Shown one piece after another: positions 2,416 through 31,117 of a DNA stretch of 64,000 nt (positions are counted from its first letter, which is position 1; every line of letters begins with the position of its first letter). Made by a program: the position numbers and the translations under genes. The stretch is from the NCBI GenBank assembly GCA_963666565.1, contig OY762911.1:2432001-2496000 (forward strand), read 5' to 3'. This DNA is from Thermoanaerobaculia bacterium (GTDB lineage: Bacteria > Acidobacteriota > Thermoanaerobaculia > Multivoradales > Multivoraceae). Under the pieces are notes generated by a model, which saw only the letters and a program-made list of their open reading frames with translations, did no database searches and was not told the origin of the DNA.

Positions 2416-5005
2416 GGTCTATCCCCGCGGGTGCGGGGGAACCCGCCCGATGGACACCGGCAAGCTGGCGGAGTCGGGTCTATCCCCGCGGGTGCGGGGG
2501 AACCAGGCCGGCCAGCCGATCGGCCACGTTCGCCGGGGGTCTATCCCCGCGGGTGCGGGGGAACCGAGTTCTTCCGGCGCGTGCTGGACGAGGGACTGGG
2601 TCTATCCCCGCGGGTGCGGGGGAACCGTGTACGCGCCGATCACGGGCTCGGAGCCGTCGGGTCTATCCCCGCGGGTGCGGGGGAACCAACCCCGGCGGCG
2701 CCGTCGCCGACGGCAAGGAGGGTCTATCCCCGCGGGTGCGGGGGAACCCCCGCGGCCGTCAGCGCCGTGCCGACCCGCTTGGGTCTATCCCCGCGGGTGC
2801 GGGGGAACCGGCCCGGCCGACGGCCTCTGGTGGGCCGACGTGGGTCTATCCCCGCGGGTGCGGGGGAACCGCAGGATGCGATCAACGCCTGCCGCAAGGC
2901 GGAGGTCTATCCCCGCGGGTGCGGGGGAACCGGCGATCGTTCTGTGCGCCGGAGATCGTCAGCAGGTCTATCCCCGCGGGTGCGGGGGAACCCGCGGATG
3001 GGACGGGCGGTCCGATGCCGTGCTGGGTCTATCCCCGCGGGTGCGGGGGAACCGGACGCCCCGATCGACTACGTCCGGGAGGATCGGGTCTATCCCCGCG
3101 GGTGCGGGGGAACCCTCCCGCAAGTTCCAGAAGGCAGGGGTACGGGGGGTCTATCCCCGCGGGTGCGGGGGAACCGAGGAGCGGCCCGACCTCCCGCGAC
3201 AGCCACTCGGTCTATCCCCGCGGGTGCGGGGGAACCACCGTCGACCTCGAGGGCATCCTGACCATCGAGGGTCTATCCCCGCGGGTGCGGGGGAACCGAG
3301 CGCCCTCACTTCCTCGCCTCCACGGCGTGAGGTCTATCCCCGCGGGTGCGGGGGAACCTACGAGCAGGAGCATGAGAACCGCACGATCGAGGGTCTATCC
3401 CCGCGGGTGCGGGGGAACCGTGGCCTTGGCCAGGTCGCGGGCGAGGTCGTGGGGTCTATCCCCGCGGGTGCGGGGGAACCGCCCCCCTGGCGGAGCCTCA
3501 GGCCCCAGATCAGGGTCTATCCCCGCGGGTGCGGGGGAACCGCCCCGGAACCGATCGGCCGCGTCCTCGCCCTGGGTCTATCCCCGCGGGTGCGGGGGAA
3601 CCGTCTACCAGGGCGCGAACGACGTGACGGACGAGGGTCTATCCCCGCGGGTGCGGGGGAACCCAGGTCGGCGAGGCCATCGACACGGGCGAACGGGGTC
3701 TATCCCCGCGGGTGCGGGGGAACCTGGCGACGACCGACTCCAGCGCGAACATCCCGAGGTCTATCCCCGCGGGTGCGGGGGAACCGAGCGCGCCCAGGGC
3801 GACGCGCCGACGGTCACGGGTCTATCCCCGCGGGTGCGGGGGAACCCTCCTCGCCCCGGAACACGCCGCCGGAGAAGGCGGTCTATCCCCGCGGGTGCGG
3901 GGGAACCACCTTGCACCGGCAGCCCCAGCCGTTCGGAGGGGGTCTATCCCCGCGGGTGCGGGGGAACCTCGCCGGCCTTGATGGCGGCGGCAAGCGCCTT
4001 GGGTCTATCCCCGCGGGTGCGGGGGAACCACGCGGCACCGATGAAGCGAGGAGGAACGATGAGGTCTATCCCCGCGGGTGCGGGGGAACCCGCCGGGCCG
4101 CCATCCTCCGCGACGTACTCGAGGGTCTATCCCCGCGGGTGCGGGGGAACCGGCAGCGACTGGGCGGCGACGGACCGGCTGTTGGGTCTATCCCCGCGGG
4201 TGCGGGGGAACCCGCCTGTTCCTCCACCTCCACGTCGTAGGTCGAGGTCTATCCCCGCGGGTGCGGGGGAACCCAGTCCGTCTGGCCGGCCTGATCCGGC
4301 GGCAGGGGTCTATCCCCGCGGGTGCGGGGGAACCACCAGGGAGCTCGCGTAGCTGGAGAACAGATCGGGTCTATCCCCGCGGGTGCGGGGGAACCCTCGG
4401 CGGGAGCGGCCGGCGTCTCGGACATGGCGGTCTATCCCCGCGGGTGCGGGGGAACCGTGACCTGCCGTTTCCGGCGTCGCAGGGCAACGGGTCTATCCCC
4501 GCGGGTGCGGGGGAACCTAGGCGGGACATACATACATACAACCGCACGGCGGTCTATCCCCGCGGGTGCGGGGGAACCCATCAAAAGGTAAGAGTCAAAG
4601 GATCCAGCAAGGGTCTATCCCCGCGGGTGCGGGGGAACCTGGAGCGATCAGCACGTCGCGTGGTTGCTCGGGGGTCTATCCCCGCGGGTGCGGGGGAACC
4701 GGTGTCGCATGTGGGTCTGGACATCGATCGCGGGGTCTATCCCCGCGGGTGCGGGGGAACCCTGAACGACGCGACTCGCGCGCCGGAGGAGCGGGGTCTA
4801 TCCCCGCGGGTGCGGGGGAACCATGTTCCGGCAGGGAGAGGATCAGGCGCGGAACGGTCTATCCCCGCGGGTGCGGGGGAACCAGCCGCGCCGATTGGTG
4901 GATCGAGCAGGAAGAGGGTCTATCCCCGCGGGTGCGGGGGAACCCTGGTCTTGATCGTCGCAGCGTCGCAAGCGTTGGGTCTATCCCCGCGGGTGCGGGG
5001 GAACC
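2416..5005 (-). CRISPR. Type I-E CRISPR array, 43 repeats and 42 spacers, 61-bp period
   Basis: Repeat GGTTCCCCCGCACCCGCGGGGATAGACC on the minus strand with a CCCCGC/GCGGGG stem; first copy at 2416, last at 4978; leader lies between the array and cas2. Confidence 0.99.
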
Positions 5006-8947: not shown

Positions 8948-9515
8948 CGGTATGCGTCTCCTTGGCTCCTGGGTTTAGCGTGGCTTCAAGATCGGCGCGG
9001 TAGTACTCGCGGGCGATCCGTCGACATGCCCGCCGGGCTGCGGGGGTGTTGTCGCCGGCCAGCACGAACTGGCCTAGCCCGAGCAGATTGAAGCGCTTGA
9101 AGTCGGTGCGAGCCAGTCGCCGGCAAATGCGGACCACGAGGTCGGACCGCTGGTCCGACGGTGCTGCGAGTAGCCGCGCAAGGCGTAGTTCCGACACGCC
9201 GGCCTGGAAGAGGGCCTTGCCCATGGACAACTCCTGTTGGTGCGCGGAGGCATTGTCCTTTCTCCGCCCCTTCGGTGTCAGGATCGCGACGGCCTGAATC
9301 ATCGCCGCCCATCTCTGTTCGTCGCCATCGGCACTGTAGCGGGTCAGTAGCCTCCAGAAGGCCGCCGCGCCGGCACCGCTCAGGGGGTCGTGGCGAAGAG
9401 CGGCGGCCGACCCCGGGTCGAGACGCGCGATCTCCGCCGCCAAACTCGGGATCACGTTCCCGAGATTCCCCGAACCTTGCGCCGTCCTCGCTGTTTCGGT
9501 GTCGCTACTCGACAT
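8940..9515 (-). CDS. cse2: Cas11/Cse2 (CasB) small subunit
   Basis: Helical ~190-aa ORF between cas8e and cas7; SELRLARLL and IAREYY motifs. Confidence 0.85.
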   Translation of the reverse strand: MSSSDTETARTAQGSGNLGNVIPSLAAEIARLDPGSAAALRHDPLSGAGAAAFWRLLTRYSADGDEQRWAAMIQAVAILTPKGRRKDNASAHQQELSMGKALFQAGVSELRLARLLAAPSDQRSDLVVRICRRLARTDFKRFNLLGLGQFVLAGDNTPAARRACRRIAREYYRADLEATLNPGAKETHTDA

Positions 9516-11088
9516 TGGCAGGCTCCCGTGCGGTGAAGATCTCCGGCTGATCGGCGAACACGCTCCTGTTGCCGCGGAGACTTCCATAGAAGGCGCTAAA
9601 GGCACGCGCTCGCGCCCGGTGTCGCCGGATCGCTGGGCAGGGCACAGATTCGACAGCGTCTACGAGGAGCGCGTCCGCGGCGGCCACCATGCCCCGGGCG
9701 AAGTTCGCGCGCTCCCCGTGGGTGCCGGCTTGCCGGCTGGCGGCGAACCGCTTCTCGACCGCATCGAAGAACCGCGAGTCGACCCACGCGTCCAGCCGGC
9801 GGGCGTACGGCCTGGCGAACGTTCGGTCGTTCTTGCTCAGGTCGCCCAGCATCTTGCCGCCACTTGCGGCGACAGCTACTCCGAGCCGCAATGCGCGCGA
9901 GACCTCTGCGATCTCCTCAAGAAGATCGCCGCTAATGGCCGCCAGTTCGTCGCGTTCTTCTTTCCGGCCGAAGGCTGCGGCGACTCCCGGGGCGAAGACG
10001 ATGTCCTTCCGCTCGTGGTAGCCATCGGTCTTGCCTTGGCCGCCTGCCATGCCTCGGGCCACTACTCGCCACCGTTCCTTGCTAGCTGCGGAGACGATCA
10101 TCGCTGGCGGAAGATCGTAGGCGGCCTTATCGAAGAGGAGCCTGTTCAGGCGGTCGTACCGGAATCCGGCGCTAGACAGCGACAGCGCTTTGGCATCGCC
10201 CGTGCTGACGGGCGTCCAGAAGTCGCCGACGTTGCCGCGGGCGGCCTTGGCGGCGACCCGGCTCGTCTTTGACCCAGCCGTCTTCGCCACGATTCGCCGA
10301 TTCTCGACACGCAGGCGCACGCGCCGACAGATCTCGATGAAGTAGGGGTCCAGGTCGCCCAGGTCGAGCGACGTTTCGCCGTCCCACGGGACGGTCCAGA
10401 GAAGAGCCGTTCCGTTCTCCGGGCGGTAGTAGTCCGGGAGGCGGTTCAGTAGTTGCGGGCGATCCTCCAGCATCTGCTGGATGTCGTGAAGGAGGTGTGC
10501 GCCGAAACCACCGCCAGCAGGCGCGAGCCCAAGGCAGGGTCGAGCCGAGAACCCGCCGTTCATGCGGGCGATCCCGTAGTTGCCGGCGCCGAGAAATCCA
10601 GCCATCGTCTGCAGGTCGATCAAGGCAAACACCCAGTCGTCCGGTGCATTCGCCCGGGCGACGTCCTGCTTGACGTCGTGGTTCTTGGACGTCACGAGGA
10701 GATCGAGGTCATCGGGCGTGGCAACTCGCCGGCGATACTGGCTGAGCGTGTCGCCCGCCGGGCACTGCATGAAGGCTGGCTTTGCAGGGTCGTTGACGAC
10801 CAACTGCCACGGTTCGTCGCCGTCGAACTCCGGCGTCAGCCTGCGTATTACCGAGCGCCACTCGGCTGCGGCGCTGGGAAGAGCCGTCGCCTCAGCCCGT
10901 TGGACGGCGAGTGTGCCGAGCTGGGCGACAAAGGCGTGCCAGGCGTGTCTTTGGTGGGGCCGCAAGGCCGGGAACGCGGCGACTGTATCGGCCGATGCCT
11001 TCTCGAAGACGTCCGGCAGCGACATCGCCTCGGAGTGGTCGTGGGCGAGACGAACTCGAATTAGTGGATCAGTGAGGAGGTTGTACAT
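9505..11088 (-). CDS. cas8e: Cas8e/Cse1 (CasA) large subunit
   Basis: MYNLLTDPLIRV N-terminus, GFLGAGNYG, YFIEICRRVRL; first gene of the Cascade operon. Confidence 0.93.
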   Translation of the reverse strand: MYNLLTDPLIRVRLAHDHSEAMSLPDVFEKASADTVAAFPALRPHQRHAWHAFVAQLGTLAVQRAEATALPSAAAEWRSVIRRLTPEFDGDEPWQLVVNDPAKPAFMQCPAGDTLSQYRRRVATPDDLDLLVTSKNHDVKQDVARANAPDDWVFALIDLQTMAGFLGAGNYGIARMNGGFSARPCLGLAPAGGGFGAHLLHDIQQMLEDRPQLLNRLPDYYRPENGTALLWTVPWDGETSLDLGDLDPYFIEICRRVRLRVENRRIVAKTAGSKTSRVAAKAARGNVGDFWTPVSTGDAKALSLSSAGFRYDRLNRLLFDKAAYDLPPAMIVSAASKERWRVVARGMAGGQGKTDGYHERKDIVFAPGVAAAFGRKEERDELAAISGDLLEEIAEVSRALRLGVAVAASGGKMLGDLSKNDRTFARPYARRLDAWVDSRFFDAVEKRFAASRQAGTHGERANFARGMVAAADALLVDAVESVPCPAIRRHRARARAFSAFYGSLRGNRSVFADQPEIFTAREPANVE

Positions 11089-11100
11089 GGTTGTGGCCTC

Positions 11101-11190
11101 GCGCTCTCCCCGCTATGGCGGGGTCGCGATTTCATCAAGCGCTTCCGTTGCTCCGCGTACGGGTCAATCTCCGATGAGGTCGGAGGGGTT
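11101..11190 (-). ncRNA. CRISPR mini-array / crRNA-like regulatory RNA (degenerate repeat, 33-nt spacer, degenerate repeat)
   Basis: Two repeat-like hairpins starting exactly 61 bp apart (11101 and 11162); spacer 11129-11161 matches 11537-11559. Confidence 0.85.
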
Positions 11191-11248
11191 GGCGCGATTC
11201 TTGGCTGCTACGATTCGGAGCATCGTCGATGAGCAACCAAGTCGGTGA

Positions 11249-11336
11249 TGGTCGTAGCGGTCCCGGCCGGAGTCGAAACCGGCATCTCGCCTTTGTTCTT
11301 CGGCGCGTCTTGACCTTAGACGACAGGACCGCTACG
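11249..11336 (-). ncRNA. tRNA-like cloverleaf RNA with non-canonical anticodon arm, extended acceptor stem and 3' ACCA
   Basis: Acceptor GGTCCTG/CGGGACC; D arm GTCT-AAGGTCA-AGAC; arm CGCC-GAAGAACAAA-GGCG; T arm GCCGG-TTTCGACT-CCGGC; extra pairing CGTAGC/GCTACG then ACCA. Confidence 0.7.
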
Positions 11337-11513
11337 GGTTGGCCCGCCGGGGTGTCTCCCCGGCGGGCGCTGTTGTTCAGGGGACGACGCGCGAAGACCA
11401 ACGGGTCGGTACTTCGGCAGCGAGGGCTCGGTGTAGCGAGTGGCAGTTCAAGGGGATTCCGCATGTCGTCCTTCCTCAGAGCGGTCATTGCGCCCGGTCA
11501 GGGCGCGTCGCCA

Positions 11514-11561
11514 ACCATAGCACAAGACAGACTGTCGCGCCTCCGTTGCTCCTCGTACGCT
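11514..11561 (-). promoter_or_regulatory. Putative extended -10 promoter of the Cascade operon (TG-C-TATGGT, 11522-11514) with crRNA-like target and PAM over the -35 region
   Basis: Extended -10 motif, protospacer match at 11537-11558, PAM AGC at 11559-11561. Confidence 0.65.
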
Positions 11562-11615
11562 ACAGATGAGGACTCGATGCAGCGTTCAGCCGTCGGCGGC
11601 AAGTTGACGACTGCC

Positions 11616-11642
11616 CGGGCGAGCTTACGGCTCGCCCGTTTT
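11616..11642. terminator. GC-rich hairpin downstream of cas3 (T tract on the + strand)
   Basis: CGGGCGAGC-TTACG-GCTCGCCCG-TTTT. Confidence 0.55.
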
Positions 11643-11690
11643 GAGCGAGCGGTACTCCGCCACGCCCTCGCCCCACCGCGTCGGTCTGTC

Positions 11691-14306
11691 TCACCAAGCA
11701 GTGACTGAAGAAGCCGAGGATTCCTCAGGTCGGACTCCGGTCCGATCGTAGGTCAGTCGAGCGTCGCCGACCGTCAGAACGAGGGTGCTGGCCGCGGTAG
11801 GTTCGGCTCGTGCGGCCTCGATGTCCTCCTTCCTGGGCAGGCCGCGCCGGAACATGTGAGCCGGGAGGTTGAAGGTACGGACCTCACTGCCGAACGGTCC
11901 GGCTAGCGGGGACGGGAGTTCGATTCGCGGGCCGTCTTCGCCCAGTCGGGTTCGGACTTTGGAGTCCAGGTCCGCGAAGACGAGGTCCCCGTCGAAGGGC
12001 TCTTCCCGCGTCAGCGCGTGGTTCCTCGCCGCGACGGCCTCGGCGGAGTTTCTTCCGACCACCTTGCTCAGGTGAGAGAGCCAGTCTTCGCCGAGCGTCT
12101 CAGCCGACTCGCGCAGCACCTGTGGGTGAGTCCCGCGCTCGACCAGCGTCCTGTTCATCTCCGGGACGGTCCAGGCCGGGTGGTCCTCGATGAGCCTCCG
12201 CGTTGCCTCGATTCCGACGAGGTTCGTGTAGATCCCGCCGCGGTCCGAAACGCCGAGCCCGTGTTGCAGGAGCGAGCCGTCGAGCCCTGCCGCCAGCCCC
12301 GAATCCGGCACGAGAACGAGGCAGCGGGCATCCTTGAACGCTGCCGGGCGTTCGTTCGGTGCGTGGCGATGCAGTCGCCCGAGCCGCTGCAGCAGGACGT
12401 CTACGGGGCAGATGTCCGTGATCAGGTAGTCGGCGTCGATGTCGAGCGACTGCTCCAGCGTCTGCGTGCCGATGACGATTGTGCCGCCCGGTGGACGACT
12501 CTCCTTCCCCAATTCCCGTTCGACGGCGGCGTCCAGCAGTCTTCGGTCCTCGGCGGCGAACCGGCTGTGGTGTAGCGCCGGTCCGCCTGCGACCGCAAGC
12601 GCCAGATCGCTGCCGCCCTGGTCCACCAGCGCGGCGAAGACGGCCCGTGCGCTGTCCACGGTGTTGCGAACGACGAGCACCTTGGCATCGTTCTGCGCCG
12701 CACGGAGCGCTTTGCGGGCGATTGCTCCTGGTTCGCCCAGGAACGCCGCCGTGGACATTGCGACCGGCTTGGACGTGCCCGTCGTCCGGATAGGGGTCAC
12801 CCGGAACTCGCCGCGGCCGTCCGCGAGCGTCATGGCGGGGTAGGGGACGGCCTCGGCATCGCTTGGCGATGGCGTGGCGTAGCGGTTGGTCTTCGAGACG
12901 AACTTGGAACTCGCCGCCGAACCCAGGGTGGCCGACATGAGCAGGGCGTGGCCTCCCAGCGTGAGGTGTCCCCGCAGGACGCCGCGCAGTACCTGCGTCA
13001 TGTAGCCGTCGCTGGCGTGGACTTCGTCCACAACGAGCAGGCTGCCGGCAAGGCCAGCCGCCCGGAAGTGCGCCCACTTCACTTGCAGACCTGCGAGGAG
13101 CGCCTGGTCGACCGTCCCGACCGCCGCTGGGGCCGTCAAGTACTTGCGGGCACTCTCGGCCGACCAACGGGCAAGCCGCTTCGCTTCGTCGGGCTCGTCC
13201 TCCCAGTAGACCTCGAACTTCTCTGCTCGGCGTCCTTCGGAATCTCCGGCCCGGAGGTAGCCCGGCACCGCCAAAACCGTCTCTGCGTTGGCAGTCGACG
13301 GGAAGAGCCGGTCCAGCGCCCGATGGACGCGCGCGTGCAGTTGTTTCGCTGCGGACCGAGTCGGAACGGCGAAGTAGAGACCGTCTACGACTCCTGCGCG
13401 CCACAGGGACGCGAATCGCAAGATGGCCGCTTCCGTCTTGCCGGACCCGGTCTCGCTCTCCAGAATCAGGAGAGGGCTGTCGAGCGGCGCCGAAGCCACG
13501 GCGGTCTGCAGAGGCCGCGGCTCGGCGTAGTTGAACAACCTCCTCACATCGGCGACCGGTGCGCCCTTCGGCCAAGCAGACCGGGCGAACCCCTTGCTCG
13601 CGACTGTCCCTGCGGCGATGCGGCGAGCGCGCTCGATGTAGGACGGGTCCGGGTCCGGCTCGTGCTTGAAGGCATCTTCGTCCGAGCCCAATTGATCGGC
13701 AATGGCGACGACGCCGGCGAAGAGGTGGGCCAACGCCGGCACGTCGGGGACCGGAGGTCCAGACTTGAAGGAGTCGGGGAACCACGCCCGTCCCCGCTCG
13801 TAGAGCAGCTTCGCGGTGGCTCGTGGTTCGTAGCCTCCGAAGGGCTGCCACAGCTCGGCCGGGCCTCTTCCCGTGCGCGATGGCCGCCGAGCCGGTCGGC
13901 CGTGATGGGCGAGCGCCGCGTAGAGAAGAGGCTCGACGCCGCCGCCCCACTCGTCGGCGATGCGATGGAGTCCCAGGAGTTCGCAGAGTCCGGGCTGCGC
14001 GAAGCTCAGCAGCGCCTCTCCGATGTGTCCGGCTGGCCGCGGGCCTCGCCGAACCGCTCCGCCGGATCGCGGCACCTTGAACTGAAAGCCGGCGTTGAGC
14101 TTGCCGAAATCGTGCAGGTAGGCGAGGTACGTCAGTCGGGCGGCGAGCGTGTCGTCGAGAACCGGCGCGCCCGCGGCTCGGGCGAAGCGGGCGCGTAGCA
14201 CGGGTTCGCCGATCAGTGCTTCAAAGCAGGCCGCTACGTCGGCACAGTGATGCTCCAGCCGATGGAAGCGTCCCGTTGCTTCGTCGAACTTCCCCCATGC
14301 GTCCAC
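11691..14306 (-). CDS. cas3: Cas3 HD nuclease-helicase
   Basis: HH..DVA and LHDFGK HD domain; ETGSGKT, DEVH, SAT, QRLGRLHRH helicase motifs. Confidence 0.98.
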   Translation of the reverse strand: MDAWGKFDEATGRFHRLEHHCADVAACFEALIGEPVLRARFARAAGAPVLDDTLAARLTYLAYLHDFGKLNAGFQFKVPRSGGAVRRGPRPAGHIGEALLSFAQPGLCELLGLHRIADEWGGGVEPLLYAALAHHGRPARRPSRTGRGPAELWQPFGGYEPRATAKLLYERGRAWFPDSFKSGPPVPDVPALAHLFAGVVAIADQLGSDEDAFKHEPDPDPSYIERARRIAAGTVASKGFARSAWPKGAPVADVRRLFNYAEPRPLQTAVASAPLDSPLLILESETGSGKTEAAILRFASLWRAGVVDGLYFAVPTRSAAKQLHARVHRALDRLFPSTANAETVLAVPGYLRAGDSEGRRAEKFEVYWEDEPDEAKRLARWSAESARKYLTAPAAVGTVDQALLAGLQVKWAHFRAAGLAGSLLVVDEVHASDGYMTQVLRGVLRGHLTLGGHALLMSATLGSAASSKFVSKTNRYATPSPSDAEAVPYPAMTLADGRGEFRVTPIRTTGTSKPVAMSTAAFLGEPGAIARKALRAAQNDAKVLVVRNTVDSARAVFAALVDQGGSDLALAVAGGPALHHSRFAAEDRRLLDAAVERELGKESRPPGGTIVIGTQTLEQSLDIDADYLITDICPVDVLLQRLGRLHRHAPNERPAAFKDARCLVLVPDSGLAAGLDGSLLQHGLGVSDRGGIYTNLVGIEATRRLIEDHPAWTVPEMNRTLVERGTHPQVLRESAETLGEDWLSHLSKVVGRNSAEAVAARNHALTREEPFDGDLVFADLDSKVRTRLGEDGPRIELPSPLAGPFGSEVRTFNLPAHMFRRGLPRKEDIEAARAEPTAASTLVLTVGDARLTYDRTGVRPEESSASSVTAW

Positions 14307-20567: not shown

Positions 20568-20768
20568 GGGTGCGCGGGTCTGCCGACCCGCATGGGTGCG
20601 CGGGTCTTCCGACCCGCATGGGTGCGCGGGTCTTCCGACCCGCATGGGTGCGCGGGTCTTCCGACCCGCTGCCGCCGCAGGCGGCCAGGTATTCGCGCCG
20701 CGAAGCGGCTCCGCCGGGCGACCTCCAGCGCGGTTTCGCCGGAAGCGGGTCAGAAGACCCGCGCACCC
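20568..20768. repeat. REP cluster: four tandem GGGTGCGCGGGTCTTCCGACCCGC copies (26-bp period) plus one inverted copy
   Basis: Palindrome GCGGGTC-TTCC-GACCCGC; about 17-18 copies across 20-57 kb. Confidence 0.9.
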
Positions 20769-28915: not shown

Positions 28916-31117
28916 ATGTCGAGAACCGCCAGCAGTCTGCCGGGTCCGCGCCGTCTGCCGGGTGCGCGGGTCTTCCGACCCGCCCTGGGTGCGCGGGTCT
29001 TCCGACCCGCTGCCGCCGAAGGCGGCCATGGAACGCGCCGGCCGCTGGGTGCGCGGGTCTTCCGACCCGCTGCCGCCGAAGGCGGCCATCGAACGTGCCG
29101 GCCGGAGGCCGGCTCCGCTCTCCTCCCCGGCGCCTCCGCCGTGCTGGCCGTACTCTTCGGTCTAGCCGCAGCCGCCGCCGTGGCCGAAACCGGCGAGCAG
29201 GGCCGCTCCGCCCACGGCGAGTGGCGGCACCACGGCGGCGACCACGCCTCCAGCCGATACTCGCCGCTCGCCCAGATCGACGGTTCGAACTTCGGCCGGC
29301 TCGAAATCGCCTGGCGCTGGCGCACGGCGGATCACGACGTGCCGCTGGACGTGCTGCCCGGCTACGACACCGGCTTCTACCGCTCCGTGCCGCTGATGAT
29401 CGGCGGCCGCCTGTTCGCGCCGACCAGCCTGGGCCAGGTCGCCCTGCTCGAGCCGGCGACCGGCGAGCAGAAATGGGTCTACAACCCGAAGACCTGGGAA
29501 CGCGGCGGCACCACGATGCGGCCGGTCGGCGCTCGCGGCATCGAGTACTGGTCGGACGGCGAGAAGGAGCGCCTGTTCGTCGCCACGATCGGCCGCCAGC
29601 TCGTCTCCATCGACGCCGCCACCGGCTTGGCCGACCGAGCCTTCGGCGAGGACGGCACGGTGGACCTGGCCCGGGATCTCGGCCCCGGCGACTACGCGAT
29701 TCGCCACATCACCCACGGAGCGCCGCCGATCGTCGTCGGCACGAGCGTGATCGTCGGCTCGAAGATCTTCGACTACTCGATCCGGAGCGACGCGCCGCCC
29801 GGCCACGTCCGCGCCTACGACGTCCACACGGGCGAGTTCAAGTGGCGCTTCAACACGATCCCGCGCGACGACGAGTACGGGGTCGAGACCTGGGAGAACG
29901 AGTCCTGGCGCACGGCCGGCAACGCGAACGTGTGGACGTCGATGAGCGCGGACCACGAACTGGGCTACGTCTACCTGCCGACCAGCACGCCCTCGAACGA
30001 CTACTACGGCGCCGACCGGCCCGGCGACAACCTGTTCGCCGAGAGCCTCGTCTGCGTCGACGCGGAGACGGGCGAGCGCGTCTGGCACTTCCAGACCGTC
30101 CGCCACGGCATCTGGGACTACGACATCGCCTCGGCCCCGAACCTGCTCGACATCGTCGTCGACGGCAAGCTGGTCAAGGCGGTCGCCCAGGTCTCGAAGA
30201 CCGGTTTCACCTACGTCTTCGACCGGGCCACCGGCGAGCCGGTGTGGCCGATCGAGGACCGGCCGGTGAACCACGAATCGACCGTGCCGGGCGAGAAGCT
30301 GGCGGAGACACAGCCGTTTCCGACGAAGCCGCCGGCGTTCGAGAAGCAGGGAGTCAGCGAGGACGACCTGATCGACTGGACGCCGGAACTGCGGGAGGAG
30401 GCGCTCGAGATCGCCGGGAAGCTGATCCTGGCGCCGATGTTCCCGCCCCTGATCGTCCAGGGCGAAGGGGGCAAGGAGGGCGTCGTGGTCGTGCCCGGCG
30501 CGGCCGGCGGTGCGAACCACCCCGGAGCCTCCGTGGACCCGGCGACCGGCGTGCTCTTCGTCGAGTCGCAGAACCGGCCGGTCGGCATGTCCCTGATCGA
30601 GCCGGACGCGGCCCGCCGGCCGGACTGGCGCTACGTGATCGACTACGTCGACACCGGGGGCCCTCGCGGCCTGCCGCTGTTCAAGCCGCCGTACCGGACG
30701 ATCACCGCGATCGACCTGAACCGCGGCGAGCACCTCTGGCGGATCCCGGTCGGCCCCGGCCCCAGGGACCACCCGGCGATCGCGCATCTGAACCTCGGCG
30801 ACATGGGCACCCGCTACATCGGCATGCCGGCCGACGGCGGCCTGCTCGTCACCCGCACGCTCCTGATCGGCTTCCTGGCCCTGCCCGACGAGGAGAACCC
30901 CCGCACCAGCCGCGGCGGCCTCCTGCGCGCCTACGACAAGGCGACCGGCGAGGTGCTTGCGGAACTCGAGACCGACGTCTGGCTCCACGGCCCGCCGATG
31001 ACCTACATGCACGAAGGCCGACAGTACATCGTCATCGCCGGCGGCGGCGCCCGCAACCGCCGGATACCGGACGAGTTGATCGCCTTCGCCCTACCGGATT
31101 CCGAGATGGGAGGATAG
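28916..31117 (+). CDS. PQQ-dependent glucose/quinate-type dehydrogenase with REP-derived N-terminal insert
   Basis: RYSPLAQI, WHFQTVRHGIWDYD, PMTY..GRQY motifs; RBS GGAGGA before 28916. Confidence 0.88.
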   Translation: MSRTASSLPGPRRLPGARVFRPALGARVFRPAAAEGGHGTRRPLGARVFRPAAAEGGHRTCRPEAGSALLPGASAVLAVLFGLAAAAAVAETGEQGRSAHGEWRHHGGDHASSRYSPLAQIDGSNFGRLEIAWRWRTADHDVPLDVLPGYDTGFYRSVPLMIGGRLFAPTSLGQVALLEPATGEQKWVYNPKTWERGGTTMRPVGARGIEYWSDGEKERLFVATIGRQLVSIDAATGLADRAFGEDGTVDLARDLGPGDYAIRHITHGAPPIVVGTSVIVGSKIFDYSIRSDAPPGHVRAYDVHTGEFKWRFNTIPRDDEYGVETWENESWRTAGNANVWTSMSADHELGYVYLPTSTPSNDYYGADRPGDNLFAESLVCVDAETGERVWHFQTVRHGIWDYDIASAPNLLDIVVDGKLVKAVAQVSKTGFTYVFDRATGEPVWPIEDRPVNHESTVPGEKLAETQPFPTKPPAFEKQGVSEDDLIDWTPELREEALEIAGKLILAPMFPPLIVQGEGGKEGVVVVPGAAGGANHPGASVDPATGVLFVESQNRPVGMSLIEPDAARRPDWRYVIDYVDTGGPRGLPLFKPPYRTITAIDLNRGEHLWRIPVGPGPRDHPAIAHLNLGDMGTRYIGMPADGGLLVTRTLLIGFLALPDEENPRTSRGGLLRAYDKATGEVLAELETDVWLHGPPMTYMHEGRQYIVIAGGGARNRRIPDELIAFALPDSEMGG
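28960..29104. repeat. Three REP copies, including a 60-bp tandem duplication
   Basis: Copies at 28960, 28987 and 29047. Confidence 0.85.

What the first reader, a model, noticed from the sequence alone, without database searches (positions are those of the whole stretch)
11101..11561. Hidden CRISPR mini-array that would guide Cascade to its own operon promoter
Seen: two degenerate repeats start exactly one array period (61 bp) apart. The one at 11162 has a stem with compensatory changes (CTCCGA/TCGGAG) and minus-strand handle ATTGACC versus ATAGACC. The one at 11101 keeps CCCCGC-N4-GCGGGG and ends 12 bp before the cas8e ATG. The spacer (minus strand, C-GTACGCGGAGCAACGGAAGCGC...) matches 11558-11537 at 20 of 22 positions, mismatched only at 6 and 18, and stops matching after 22. 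The PAM is 5'-AGC; its C agrees with the C bias of the main array. The target covers the -35 region of a predicted TG-C-TATGGT promoter. Established: every sixth base is flipped out in Cascade R-loops, and partial matches allow binding without Cas3 cleavage (CreA/CreR-type RNAs). Inference: autorepression of the Cascade operon and of RNAs in its leader.
Basis: partly seen in the sequence, partly recalled or inferred. Interest (0 to 1): 0.9.

Follow-up and report, generated by a model that had tools for sequence, protein, structure and literature searches.

The report
Mini-CRISPR that represses its own Cascade
Just upstream of the first Cascade gene of a type I-E CRISPR system lies a two-repeat, degenerate mini-CRISPR whose spacer matches a site at the operon's own promoter region, a known kind of self-regulating guide RNA (CreR) that is here strongly supported by co-evolution of spacer and target in related genomes.

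Summary
The window holds a type I-E locus on the minus strand, and its cas3-cas8e spacer region contains psiR1 (11190-11161), a 32-nt psi-spacer (11160-11129) and psiR2 (11128-11100). The first 22 nt of the spacer match 11558-11537 at 20 of 22, with mismatches at positions 6 and 18, next to AGC.

With positions 6/12/18 masked, this is the only other perfect site in the 4.79-Mb genome.

In the genus, 9 of 10 genomes with cas8e carry such a mini-array plus target. Spacer and target co-vary, and 19 of 24 mismatches fall at positions 6/12/18.

Among 81 loci of this Cas8e clade, spread over several phyla, 32 have the module. Only the 6/12/18 phase gives matches: 24 loci, against 0-1 for the other phases.

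This is a CreR-type regulatory mini-CRISPR, a kind described in 2023, so it is a new member of a known kind. The promoter, the RNA processing and the repression itself remain untested, because no RNA data are held.

One unexpected extra: a conserved tRNA-derived cloverleaf sits between target and mini-array. tRNA-like genes recur at the same place in two phyla.

The parts
11161..11190 (-). psiR1: degenerate repeat. A 6-bp stem (CTCCGA/TCGGAG) with a 5-nt loop is followed directly by the 8-nt 5'-handle ATTGACCC.
   Evidence: (the hairpin is predicted in the MFE fold). In one search a hairpin ends exactly at the handle in 31 of 32 loci; the exception is L053.
11129..11160 (-). psi-spacer, 32 nt. 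Its first 22 nt pair with the target except at positions 6 and 18.
11100..11128 (-). psiR2: degenerate repeat with the canonical stem CCCCGC-N4-GCGGGG. It would be the 3' hairpin of the guide. Its 3' base lies about 19 nt before the cas8e ATG, just upstream of a GAGG ribosome-binding site.
11537..11558 (-). Target (protospacer strand, which is the sense strand of cas8e): 20 of 22 identical to the psi-spacer.
   Evidence: the only such site in the genome.
11559..11561 (-). PAM-side flank, 5'-AGC.
   Evidence: In relatives the flank is AAT, AAC, AGT, AAG, AAA or ATT; A at -3 in 32 of 32 loci.
11514..11522 (-). Candidate extended -10 (TGC-TATGGT), 17 nt downstream of the matched 22-mer. Untested.
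   Evidence: A TATGGTTGG block is shared with G062, and TAGGAT sits at the same spacing in G033. Not reported by the consensus scan.
11559..11588 (-). Eroded counterpart (TGAACG ... TGTAGC) of the TTGAC-N16/17-nnTAGT promoter that directly precedes the target in 5 genus relatives (G013, G036, G004, G009, G010).
   Evidence: Alignment and flanks. That this is a remnant is inference.
11256..11332 (-). tRNA-derived cloverleaf between target and mini-array: acceptor, D and T arms, a 10-nt 'anticodon' loop and an 8-nt T loop.
   Evidence: 95.7% of cells paired, 4 pairs with changes on both sides. It is not called by ARAGORN, and the best Rfam match is 13 bits.
11342..11368 (-). 11-bp G+C hairpin directly upstream of the cloverleaf, kept in relatives through paired changes.
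   Evidence: found as a hairpin; CCGGGG/CCCCGG, CCGAGG/CCTCGG and CCGAGC/GCTCGG in relatives.
9505..11088 (-). [quoted passage not shown]
   Evidence: PF09481.
11691..14306 (-). cas3, upstream and on the same strand.
   Evidence: Cas3 HD, helicase and C-terminal domains.
2416..5005 (-). Main CRISPR array: 43 repeats and 42 spacers of 32+1 nt. It is the source of the crRNAs that would compete with the psi-guide.

Best explanation
The element is a CreR-type regulatory mini-CRISPR embedded in the 5' leader of cas8e.

Proposed mechanism:
1. The leader is transcribed on the minus strand from the region around 11507-11565.
2. Cas6e binds the psiR1 and psiR2 hairpins and cuts at their 3' bases. This releases a 61-nt crRNA-like RNA made of the handle AUUGACCC, the 32-nt psi-spacer and the psiR2 hairpin.
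3. The cut at psiR2 also leaves the cas8e message with a leader of about 19 nt that carries its ribosome-binding site.
4. Cascade loaded with this RNA recognises the AGC-flanked site 11558-11537, 398 bp upstream. It pairs positions 1-5, 7-17 and 19-22; positions 6, 12 and 18 are not read.
5. Pairing stops at 22 of 32, so the R-loop cannot reach full length and lock. Cas3 is not licensed, and the bound complex simply occludes the promoter of the Cascade operon.

The result is negative feedback. More free Cascade gives less transcription. Titration of Cascade by array crRNAs, or its inhibition, relieves repression.

Shown here: the anatomy, the uniqueness of the target, the co-evolution of spacer and target, the 6-nt phase of tolerated mismatches, and the conserved A at -3.

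Inferred: transcription start, Cas6e processing, binding without cleavage, and repression.
For: Anatomy and match.

Uniqueness: 0 of 5000 shuffles reached the score, and it is the only genome-wide site when positions 6/12/18 are masked.

Genus (42 genomes searched, 10 with cas8e):
- 8 have a same-strand mini-array whose best unmasked hit in the upstream 700 nt is a same-strand site, at 15-18 of 20.
- G015 has a divergent mini-array with a 16 of 20 target between a TTGACT-N17-TACGGT promoter and the cas8e ribosome-binding site.
- G027 has none.
- Spacers differ between lineages (they start GTACG.., GTGTG.., GTTCG.. or GTATG..) and the targets differ in the same way.
- 19 of 24 mismatches lie at positions 6/12/18. 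That is 19 of 24 flipped-position cells mismatched, against 5 of 136 paired-position cells.

Wider clade (81 loci, plus the window):
- 32 loci have a handle, a psiR2 hairpin and a target scoring at least 14 of 17.
- Phase control: masking 6/12/18 gives 24 loci at 14 of 15 or better. The other five phases give 0, 0, 1, 0 and 1, and a decoy motif gives 0.
- Flanks in 31 distinct pairs: AAT 12, AAC 9, AGT 5, AAG 2, AAA 2, AGC 1.
- A hairpin ends exactly at the handle in 31 of 32 loci, although stem sequences differ.
- In most loci a TTGAC-type -35 and a -10 lie directly before the flank, and the flank is often the 3' end of the -10 hexamer.

Precedent:
- CreR of a Salmonella I-E locus repressed PcasA about 8.6-fold with E. 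coli Cascade, and the effect was lost on seed mutation.
- Mini-arrays were reported in about 19% of bacterial I-E loci, with targets at the cas8 promoter.
- R-loop locking needs a wild-type-sized R-loop (abstract and a section heading).

All cas genes, cas6e included, are intact.
Against: - No expression or processing data: no RNA run is listed for this stretch.
- AGC occurs only in the window among the 31 distinct pairs. Its permissiveness for this Cas8e is unknown, and an independent PAM could not be derived from protospacers.
- The strong promoter that precedes the target in relatives is eroded in the window, and the simple sigma-70 scan finds nothing in 11000-11800. Which promoter is repressed here is therefore open.
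- psiR1 departs from the canonical stem at 2 of 6 pairs and has a 5-nt loop, so Cas6e cleavage there is assumed.
- The window's spacer/target pair is identical to that of G033, so the co-variation evidence comes from other genomes.
- The kin are related, and the module may have spread by transfer, so the counts overstate independence.
Confidence: 0.8

Rival explanations
1. A CreTA-like safeguard rather than, or as well as, plain autoregulation. The main thing held down by the psi-guide would be the tRNA-derived RNA transcribed first from the repressed promoter. If Cascade is lost or inhibited, this RNA would be made and slow the cell, either as a toxin or as an alarm.
For: - The order target, then cloverleaf, then mini-array, then cas8e is kept in 7 genus genomes and in 4 further Acidobacteriota loci, where ARAGORN calls a 71-nt tRNA-Ala(UGC/AGC).
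- Three Chloroflexota loci have an 84-nt tRNA-Leu-shaped gene, read as tRNA-Pro, that starts 3-20 nt after the target.
- The structure is kept by paired changes.
- CreTA modules put an RNA toxin under a CreA-repressed promoter inside cas loci (abstracts; passages).
- Toxin-antitoxin genes are reported as enriched between mini-arrays and cas genes.
Against: - There is no evidence of toxicity.
- The window's copy has a 10-nt 'anticodon' loop and an 8-nt T loop, so it cannot decode.
- Known CreT toxins are small mRNA-like RNAs that sequester tRNAs, not tRNA mimics (title and abstract).
- A tRNA shape is equally well explained as an RNase P/Z processing or stabilising module for the leader.
Confidence: 0.15
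2. An inert relic: a decayed end of an old array or a stray repeat pair, with a chance or historical self-match and no present function.
For: Both pseudo-repeats are degenerate. Stand-alone repeats are common in cas loci. The window's upstream promoter looks eroded.
Against: - Spacer and target co-vary across lineages.
- Seed positions stay paired while positions 6/12/18 drift.
- The handle, both hairpins and the A at -3 are conserved across phyla.
- The target is unique in the genome.
Confidence: 0.03
3. Two copies of a protein operator: the 22-bp direct repeat would be bound by a transcription factor, and the repeat-like flanks would be coincidental.
For: Direct repeats in a regulatory region are a common operator layout. 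No RNA data are available.
Against: - One copy always sits exactly between an 8-nt crRNA handle and a Cas6e-type hairpin, at 20, 26 or 32 nt.
- Tolerated mismatches follow a strict 6-nt phase counted from the handle. A protein operator would not show this.
- The other copy always carries an A-rich flank on the handle-proximal side.
Confidence: 0.02

Closest known systems
CreR (Cas-regulating RNA) of the Salmonella enterica type I-E locus (Liu et al. 2023, bioRxiv 10.1101/2023.03.10.532045; abstract, section 8 and passages read)
   Same: - A degenerate mini-CRISPR in the cas locus.
- psiR1 keeps the 8-nt handle and psiR2 keeps the 3' hairpin.
- The psi-spacer is partly complementary to a PAM-flanked site upstream of casA/cas8e.
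- Cascade is predicted to repress its own operon.
   Different: - The match here is 20 of 22 with gaps at positions 6 and 18, against 15 consecutive nt there.
- The flank is AGC (AAY or AGT in relatives) instead of AAG.
- The host is an uncultured Acidobacteriota lineage.
- The mini-array lies in the cas8e leader on the same strand, ending about 12 nt before the ATG.
- A tRNA-derived cloverleaf lies between target and guide.
- Nothing has been tested experimentally here.
Regulatory mini-arrays / cr-like RNAs between cas3 and cas8 of I-E and I-F1 loci (Shmakov et al. 2023, bioRxiv 10.1101/2023.03.03.530964; passages read)
   Same: - Located in a long cas3-cas8 intergenic region.
- The target is at the cas8 promoter, with a PAM and a seed next to the better-conserved repeat.
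- Mismatches at sixth positions are noted there too.
   Different: - In the E. coli-type example the mini-array is said to be transcribed opposite to cas3. Here, and in 22 of 31 distinct pairs of this clade, it is co-directional with cas3 and cas8e.
- Whether their tables list this clade could not be checked, because supplements are closed.
CreTA of Haloarcula hispanica type I-B and its analogues (search listing and abstracts; passages)
   Same: A crRNA-like RNA from degenerate repeats guides Cascade to a partial match at a promoter inside the cas locus. The same guide can repress both a cargo RNA and cas8.
   Different: CreT is a small mRNA-like toxin that sequesters a rare tRNA. Here no such mini-ORF is conserved (indels that are not multiples of 3), and the only conserved cargo is a tRNA-shaped RNA of unknown effect.
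Phage Cracr RNAs (bioRxiv 10.1101/2024.10.29.618823; passages read)
   Same: The same psiR-psiS-psiR design and the same target logic. Psi-spacers shorter than 32 nt occur there as well (24 nt).
   Different: Those are carried by phages or plasmids in order to shut down host cas operons. The element here is chromosomal and sits inside the locus it targets.

Membership tests
CreR / regulatory mini-CRISPR of type I systems | Two degenerate repeat-like units flank one spacer-like unit at array spacing; the upstream unit keeps the 5' handle and the downstream unit keeps the hairpin. | tested here: met
   The period is 61 nt, the handle matches ATAGACCC at 7 of 8, and the psiR2 stem is identical to the array repeat.
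CreR / regulatory mini-CRISPR of type I systems | Lies inside the cas locus in an intergenic region next to effector genes. | tested here: met
   It lies between cas3 and cas8e, 12 nt before cas8e.
CreR / regulatory mini-CRISPR of type I systems | The psi-spacer matches, only partly and from the seed end, a site with a PAM near the cas promoter. | tested here: met
   (20 of 22, seed intact, unique in the genome). A at -3 in 32 of 32 loci. That AGC is a working PAM is inferred.
CreR / regulatory mini-CRISPR of type I systems | The target overlaps a functional promoter of the effector operon. | tested here: inconclusive
   One search found no consensus promoter. There is a candidate TGC-TATGGT 17 nt downstream of the match. 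In relatives the target abuts a TTGAC-N16/17-nnTAGT promoter. No transcription-start data exist.
CreR / regulatory mini-CRISPR of type I systems | Cas6-dependent maturation into a crRNA-like RNA and Cascade-dependent repression. | not testable with these tools
   No RNA runs are held. The indirect support is the 6-nt phase of tolerated mismatches.
CreR as opposed to CreA (no coupled toxin) | No toxin gene under the repressed promoter. | tested here: inconclusive
   A conserved tRNA-derived RNA lies under the promoter. Its effect is unknown, and no conserved small ORF is present.
Canonical CRISPR array | Identical repeats next to a leader, with spacers from foreign DNA. | tested here: not met
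   There are only two units, both degenerate, and the spacer matches the host's own locus.
tRNA (for the cloverleaf at 11256-11332) | A 7-nt anticodon loop, a 7-nt T loop, and detection by tRNA finders or Rfam above threshold. | tested here: not met
   ARAGORN finds none in the window. Rfam's best match is tRNA-Sec at 13.1 bits against a gathering score of 47. The loops are 10 and 8 nt. Homologous copies in 4 other Acidobacteriota loci are called tRNA-Ala.

The most novel reading that the evidence does not exclude
The Cascade-repressed promoter may control more than the cas operon: it may control a tRNA-derived RNA as its first product.

The same layout (promoter with the psi-guide target at or next to it, then a tRNA-like gene, then cas8e) has arisen with two different parental tRNAs:
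- In Acidobacteriota it is a 71-nt body with U73, whose best match in a sequence search was tRNA-Cys in the T-arm region. It is read as Ala(UGC/AGC), and in this genus it has decayed to a non-decoding cloverleaf.
- In Chloroflexota it is an 84-nt tRNA-Leu-shaped body with A73, read as Pro(AGG/UGG).

If these RNAs are toxic or act as signals when de-repressed, for instance as mis-decoding or machinery-sequestering tRNA mimics, the module would be a new type of CRISPR-guarding toxin-antitoxin pair: a tRNA-mimic counterpart of CreT that fires when Cascade is lost or blocked by anti-CRISPRs.

A milder version is that the tRNA shape recruits RNase P/Z to cut the leader, a natural analogue of engineered tRNA-guide-RNA arrays.
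Probability: 0.2. Interest if true: 0.85.

Novelty: new member of a known kind. Interest (0 to 1): 0.5.

Why it matters
It shows that crRNA-guided self-repression of Cascade, so far tested in Salmonella / E. coli I-E, haloarchaeal I-B, Pseudomonas I-F1 and Moraxella V-A (per the passages read), also operates in uncultured Acidobacteriota. It is also shared by a Cas8e clade that spans Gemmatimonadota, Latescibacterota, Spirochaetia, Gammaproteobacteria and Chloroflexota MAGs.

The natural variation gives evolutionary read-outs of Cascade's rules without any experiment:
- Pairing is required everywhere except at every sixth position.
- A is required at -3.
- Psi-spacers come in lengths of about 32, 26 and 20 nt, i.e. 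whole Cas7 steps.
- The flank is often built into the -10 hexamer.

For annotation, such elements explain long cas3-cas8e gaps and should not be called ORFs. The tRNA-like cargo, if functional, would open a new question about what CRISPR systems hold hostage.

Tried and rejected
- RNA evidence: the look-up of sequencing runs listed 4 holders from one study and no RNA holder. I did not lay reads, so there is nothing on expression either way.
- Independent PAM from protospacers: the whole array against the phage collection gave only weak 33-47-nt hits (best E 5e-3, to Burkholderia phages). The 42 spacers against the own genome gave only 16-26-nt partial matches. The PAM therefore rests on the self-targets and on the array's 29th-base bias.
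- Known RNA families: Rfam found nothing at E <= 1 in 11000-11800. On 96 nt the only hit was tRNA-Sec at 13 bits, E 2.5. ARAGORN found nothing in the window stretch.
- Coding readings: the ORFs 11135-11488 (-) and 11229-11708 (+) have no Pfam family. The alignment of relatives shows indels that are not multiples of three and a frame change in G033. I rejected them as genes.
- A 7-bp complementarity between the leader (around 11227-11244) and the psi-spacer (inverted repeat I3) does not co-vary in G033 (read). I dropped it as chance.
- A second genomic site with 2 mismatches (genome 3005182, flank CGA) is within chance expectation for a 12-base seed. I dropped it.
- The Fisher test (79 of 93 against 35 of 465) is circular, because the scan masked positions 6/12/18. 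I rely instead on the unmasked genus search and on the phase control.
- From the 35 loci scoring at least 14 of 17, I dropped L087, L090 and L104 (no psiR2 hairpin, non-A flank) before counting.
- My handle pattern missed L081 and L095 (handle GTAGACC), which do have the module by alignment. So 32 of 81 is a lower bound.
- Supplements of the two 2023 preprints were closed. They may already list loci of this clade.
Full report
**Setting.**
- The window has 70% G+C and lies in a single-contig genome of 4.79 Mb.
- Records that carry the closest Cas8e relatives are titled as MAGs of Thermoanaerobaculia / 'Candidatus Multivorans', phylum Acidobacteriota.
- On the minus strand lie, in order (Pfam): cas3 (14306-11691), a 602-nt gap, cas8e (11088-9505), cse2, cas7, cas5, cas6e and cas1.
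- Then comes an array of 43 identical repeats at an exact 61-nt period (5005-2416).
- Read in the direction of transcription, the repeat is GGTTC-CCCCGC-ACCC-GCGGGG-ATAGACC plus a 29th base. That base is C in 32, T in 6 and G in 5 of the 43 repeats.

- Read on the minus strand, the last 102 nt before the cas8e ATG run as follows:
  - a hairpin, CTCCGA-CCTCA-TCGGAG;
  - the handle ATTGACCC;
  - a 32-nt spacer;
  - CGCGA-CCCCGC-CATA-GCGGGG-AGAGCGCG;
  - 11 nt that carry a GAGG ribosome-binding site;
  - the ATG.
- The two pseudo-repeats start 61 nt apart (11161 and 11100).
- psiR1 keeps 7 of 8 handle bases and 4 of 6 stem pairs; the other two pairs are changed on both sides. psiR2 keeps the canonical stem.
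- An RNA fold of 11200-11086 predicts both hairpins (z = -2.3).
- The repeat finder independently reports the direct repeat 11139-11161 / 11537-11559. In spacer numbering this is 20 of 22 with mismatches at 6 and 18, followed by 2 of 10 matches for positions 23-32. The flank is AGC.

**More than chance.**
- No shuffle of the first 20 spacer bases, out of 5000, reached 18 of 20 anywhere in the 700 nt upstream on either strand.
- With positions 6, 12 and 18 masked, the 22-mer has exactly one other perfect site in the whole genome, and it is this one. It is also the only site with the seed plus an A[AGT][CT] flank.
- CCCCGC-N4-GCGGGG occurs 46 times in the genome: 43 in the array, psiR2 and two others.
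- A perfect hairpin followed directly by a handle-like heptamer occurs at 27 places outside the array on both strands. One of these at array spacing from one of those three stems is not expected by chance.

**Relatives in the genus.**
- Of 42 genomes of the genus held, 10 encode a Cas8e homologue.
- In 8 of them (the window's genome included) a same-strand mini-array ends 60-74 nt before cas8e. In each, the best unmasked 20-nt hit in the upstream 700 nt is a same-strand site 241-517 nt before the ATG, at 15-18 of 20. Shuffles reaching the observed score numbered 0, 0, 3, 0, 0, 1, 12 and 90 of 5000.
- G015 (Cas8e 40% identical) has a divergent mini-array. Its spacer matches, at 16 of 20, a site between a TTGACT-N17-TACGGT promoter and the cas8e ribosome-binding site.
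- G027 has only about 27 nt between cas3 and cas8e and no module.
- The spacers differ between lineages, and each target has changed in step with its own spacer: GTACGCGGAGCAAC.. with GTACGAGGAGCAAC.., and GTGTGCGGCGC.. with GTGTG[C/A]GG[C/T]GC... The pairs starting GTTCG.. and GTATG.. behave likewise.
- Of the 24 mismatches in these eight pairs, 19 lie at positions 6, 12 or 18. So 19 of 24 flipped-position cells are mismatched, about what unrelated sequence would give, against 5 of 136 paired-position cells.
- That every sixth spacer base is not paired in Cascade R-loops is established structural knowledge. I recall it for I-E; it is stated for I-F1 in the passages.

**The wider clade.**
- An alignment of the ten Cas8e proteins retrieved 80 loci from public genomes. 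Eight are from the same genus. The rest are Vicinamibacterales and other Acidobacteriota, Gemmatimonadota, Latescibacterota, Spirochaetia, Gammaproteobacteria, Rhodothermales, Chloroflexota and others.
- I anchored a scan on handle-like heptamers in the 1.5 kb before cas8e. Of 81 loci, 74 have such a heptamer and 35 reach at least 14 of 17 paired positions. I dropped three (L087, L090, L104) for lack of a psiR2 hairpin and of an A-type flank, which leaves 32 loci, 24 of them outside the genus.
- The psiR2 stem begins 36-38 nt after the handle in 18 pairs, 24-26 nt in 10 and 31-32 nt in 2. These offsets correspond to psi-spacers of about 32, 20 and 26 nt, i.e. steps of six.
- The flanks are AAT 12, AAC 9, AGT 5, AAG 2, AAA 2 and AGC 1, so A stands at -3 in every case.
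- The mini-array is co-directional with cas8e in 22 pairs and divergent in 9 (mostly Chloroflexota). In all 31 pairs the protospacer strand is the cas8e sense strand.
- Because that scan masked positions 6/12/18, its mismatch tally is circular. The clean test is the phase control:

| Masked positions (mod 6) | Loci at 14 of 15 or better |
|---|---|
| 0 (positions 6, 12, 18) | 24 (8 of them perfect) |
| 1 | 0 |
| 2 | 0 |
| 3 | 1 |
| 4 | 0 |
| 5 | 1 |
| handle pattern read backwards, any phase | 0 |

- A hairpin ends exactly at the handle in 31 of 32 loci, though the stems differ in sequence.

**Where the target sits.**
- In most loci a TTGAC-type -35 and a -10 lie directly before the flank. Often the flank is the end of the -10 hexamer, for example TTGACA-N18-TATAAT in L092, TTGACG-N17-TACAAT in L069 and TTGACA-N17-CATAGT in G004 and G009. 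There the bound complex would cover the -10 and the start site.
- In the window the corresponding bases read TGAACG-N18-TGTAGC. This lacks the key A and T of the -10, so that promoter looks eroded (inference).
TATGGTTGG is shared with G062, and TAGGAT stands at the same 17-nt distance in G033.
- The consensus scan reports no promoter in 11000-11800.
- So the target is at a promoter region, but which start is used in this genome is open.

**Mechanism.**
- I commit to the CreR mechanism given under Best explanation.
- Binding without cleavage follows from two points. The match ends at 22 of 32, and locking of I-E R-loops needs a wild-type-sized R-loop (abstract and section heading).
- Shortened crRNAs assemble Cascades with fewer Cas7 subunits (abstract). 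This fits the 26- and 20-nt psi-spacers of relatives.
- One consequence of the in-leader layout is that each operon transcript yields one guide, and cutting at psiR2 trims the cas8e message to a short leader (inference).

**Comparison with what is known.**
- Liu et al. define CreR and show that a Salmonella I-E CreR represses PcasA about 8.6-fold through E. coli Cascade, with loss of the effect on seed mutation and relief by extra crRNAs.
- Shmakov et al. report mini-arrays in about 19% of bacterial I-E loci, long cas3-cas8 gaps, targets at the cas8 promoter, and mismatches at sixth positions.
- The kind is therefore known. The window adds a member from a new lineage, with a co-directional, in-leader layout and an AGC flank.

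**An unexpected neighbour.**
- Between target and mini-array lie an 11-bp G+C hairpin (11368-11342) and a 77-nt cloverleaf (11332-11256).
- Across 11 loci the cloverleaf has 95.7% of cells paired and 4 pairs changed on both sides. Its covariation score was reached by 0 of 500 shuffles, and the slid controls pair at 31-52%.
- The window's copy has a 10-nt 'anticodon' loop and an 8-nt T loop. It is not called a tRNA.
- Homologous copies in four other Acidobacteriota loci are called tRNA-Ala(UGC/AGC), with C3:G70 and U73.
- Three Chloroflexota loci carry, 3-20 nt after their target, a nearly identical 84-nt gene with a tRNA-Leu-like body and A73, read as tRNA-Pro. That this body resembles tRNA-Leu is my recollection of E. 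coli tRNA-Leu, not a tool result.
- The term 'tRNA-like' occurs in none of the CreTA or CreR papers listed. 'tRNA' occurs 0 times in the Cracr preprint and once in Shmakov et al.. I did not search further.
- Whether this RNA is a processing module or a Cascade-guarded cargo is unknown.

**Verdict.**
The element is a new member of a known kind, of moderate interest.
- The tRNA-like cargo is the part most worth following up.

Noticed in passing
window 11256-11332 (-); homologues in L026-L030, L063, L035, L036, L038 and L039; a separate type in L079:1264-1347, L081:1243-1326 and L095:1144-1227: A tRNA-derived cloverleaf lies between the psi-guide target and cas8e. It is degenerate in this genus. 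In four other Acidobacteriota loci it is called tRNA-Ala(UGC/AGC). In three Chloroflexota loci an 84-nt tRNA-Leu-shaped gene, read as tRNA-Pro, sits right after the target.
   Followed up: partly
window 11342-11368: An 11-bp G+C hairpin directly upstream of the cloverleaf is kept in relatives through paired changes. On the minus strand it has no U-tract; on the plus strand it looks like a terminator.
   Followed up: partly
L018 / L063 (G036) 1201-1284: The first 28 nt of the cloverleaf (acceptor 5' strand plus D arm) stand in three tandem copies in this relative.
   Followed up: no
32 loci: Psi-spacer lengths cluster at about 32, 26 and 20 nt (18, 2 and 10 pairs), i.e. whole 6-nt Cas7 steps.

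At positions 6/12/18 the targets are A/T in 74 of 93 cells, while the spacers are G/C in 61 of 93. These positions mismatch in 79 of 93 cells, slightly more than random expectation.
   Followed up: partly
outside the window, about 240-262 nt before its first base (G000:C1 near 2431740-2431762, minus strand): A solitary repeat of a second I-E repeat type (stem CCCCGC-ACAC-GCGGGG, handle ATGAACCG) lies 2.65 kb beyond the distal end of the array. The same repeat type forms arrays in G004 and G062.
   Followed up: no
window 20568-20669 and 28985-29104: Tandem copies of a shared 24-26-nt hairpin-forming unit (GGGTGCGCGGGTCTTCCGACCCGC..) occur at two places, like a small REP-type repeat.
   Followed up: no
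window 3420-3452 (spacer) against genome position 3455427: One array spacer matches a distant chromosomal site at 24 of 26 from its first base. It may be chance or a gene shared with a mobile element.
   Followed up: no
L026-L105: Cas8e proteins 44-68% identical to this one, many with the same mini-array design, occur in MAGs of at least eight phyla. This suggests horizontal spread of the whole regulated module.
   Followed up: no
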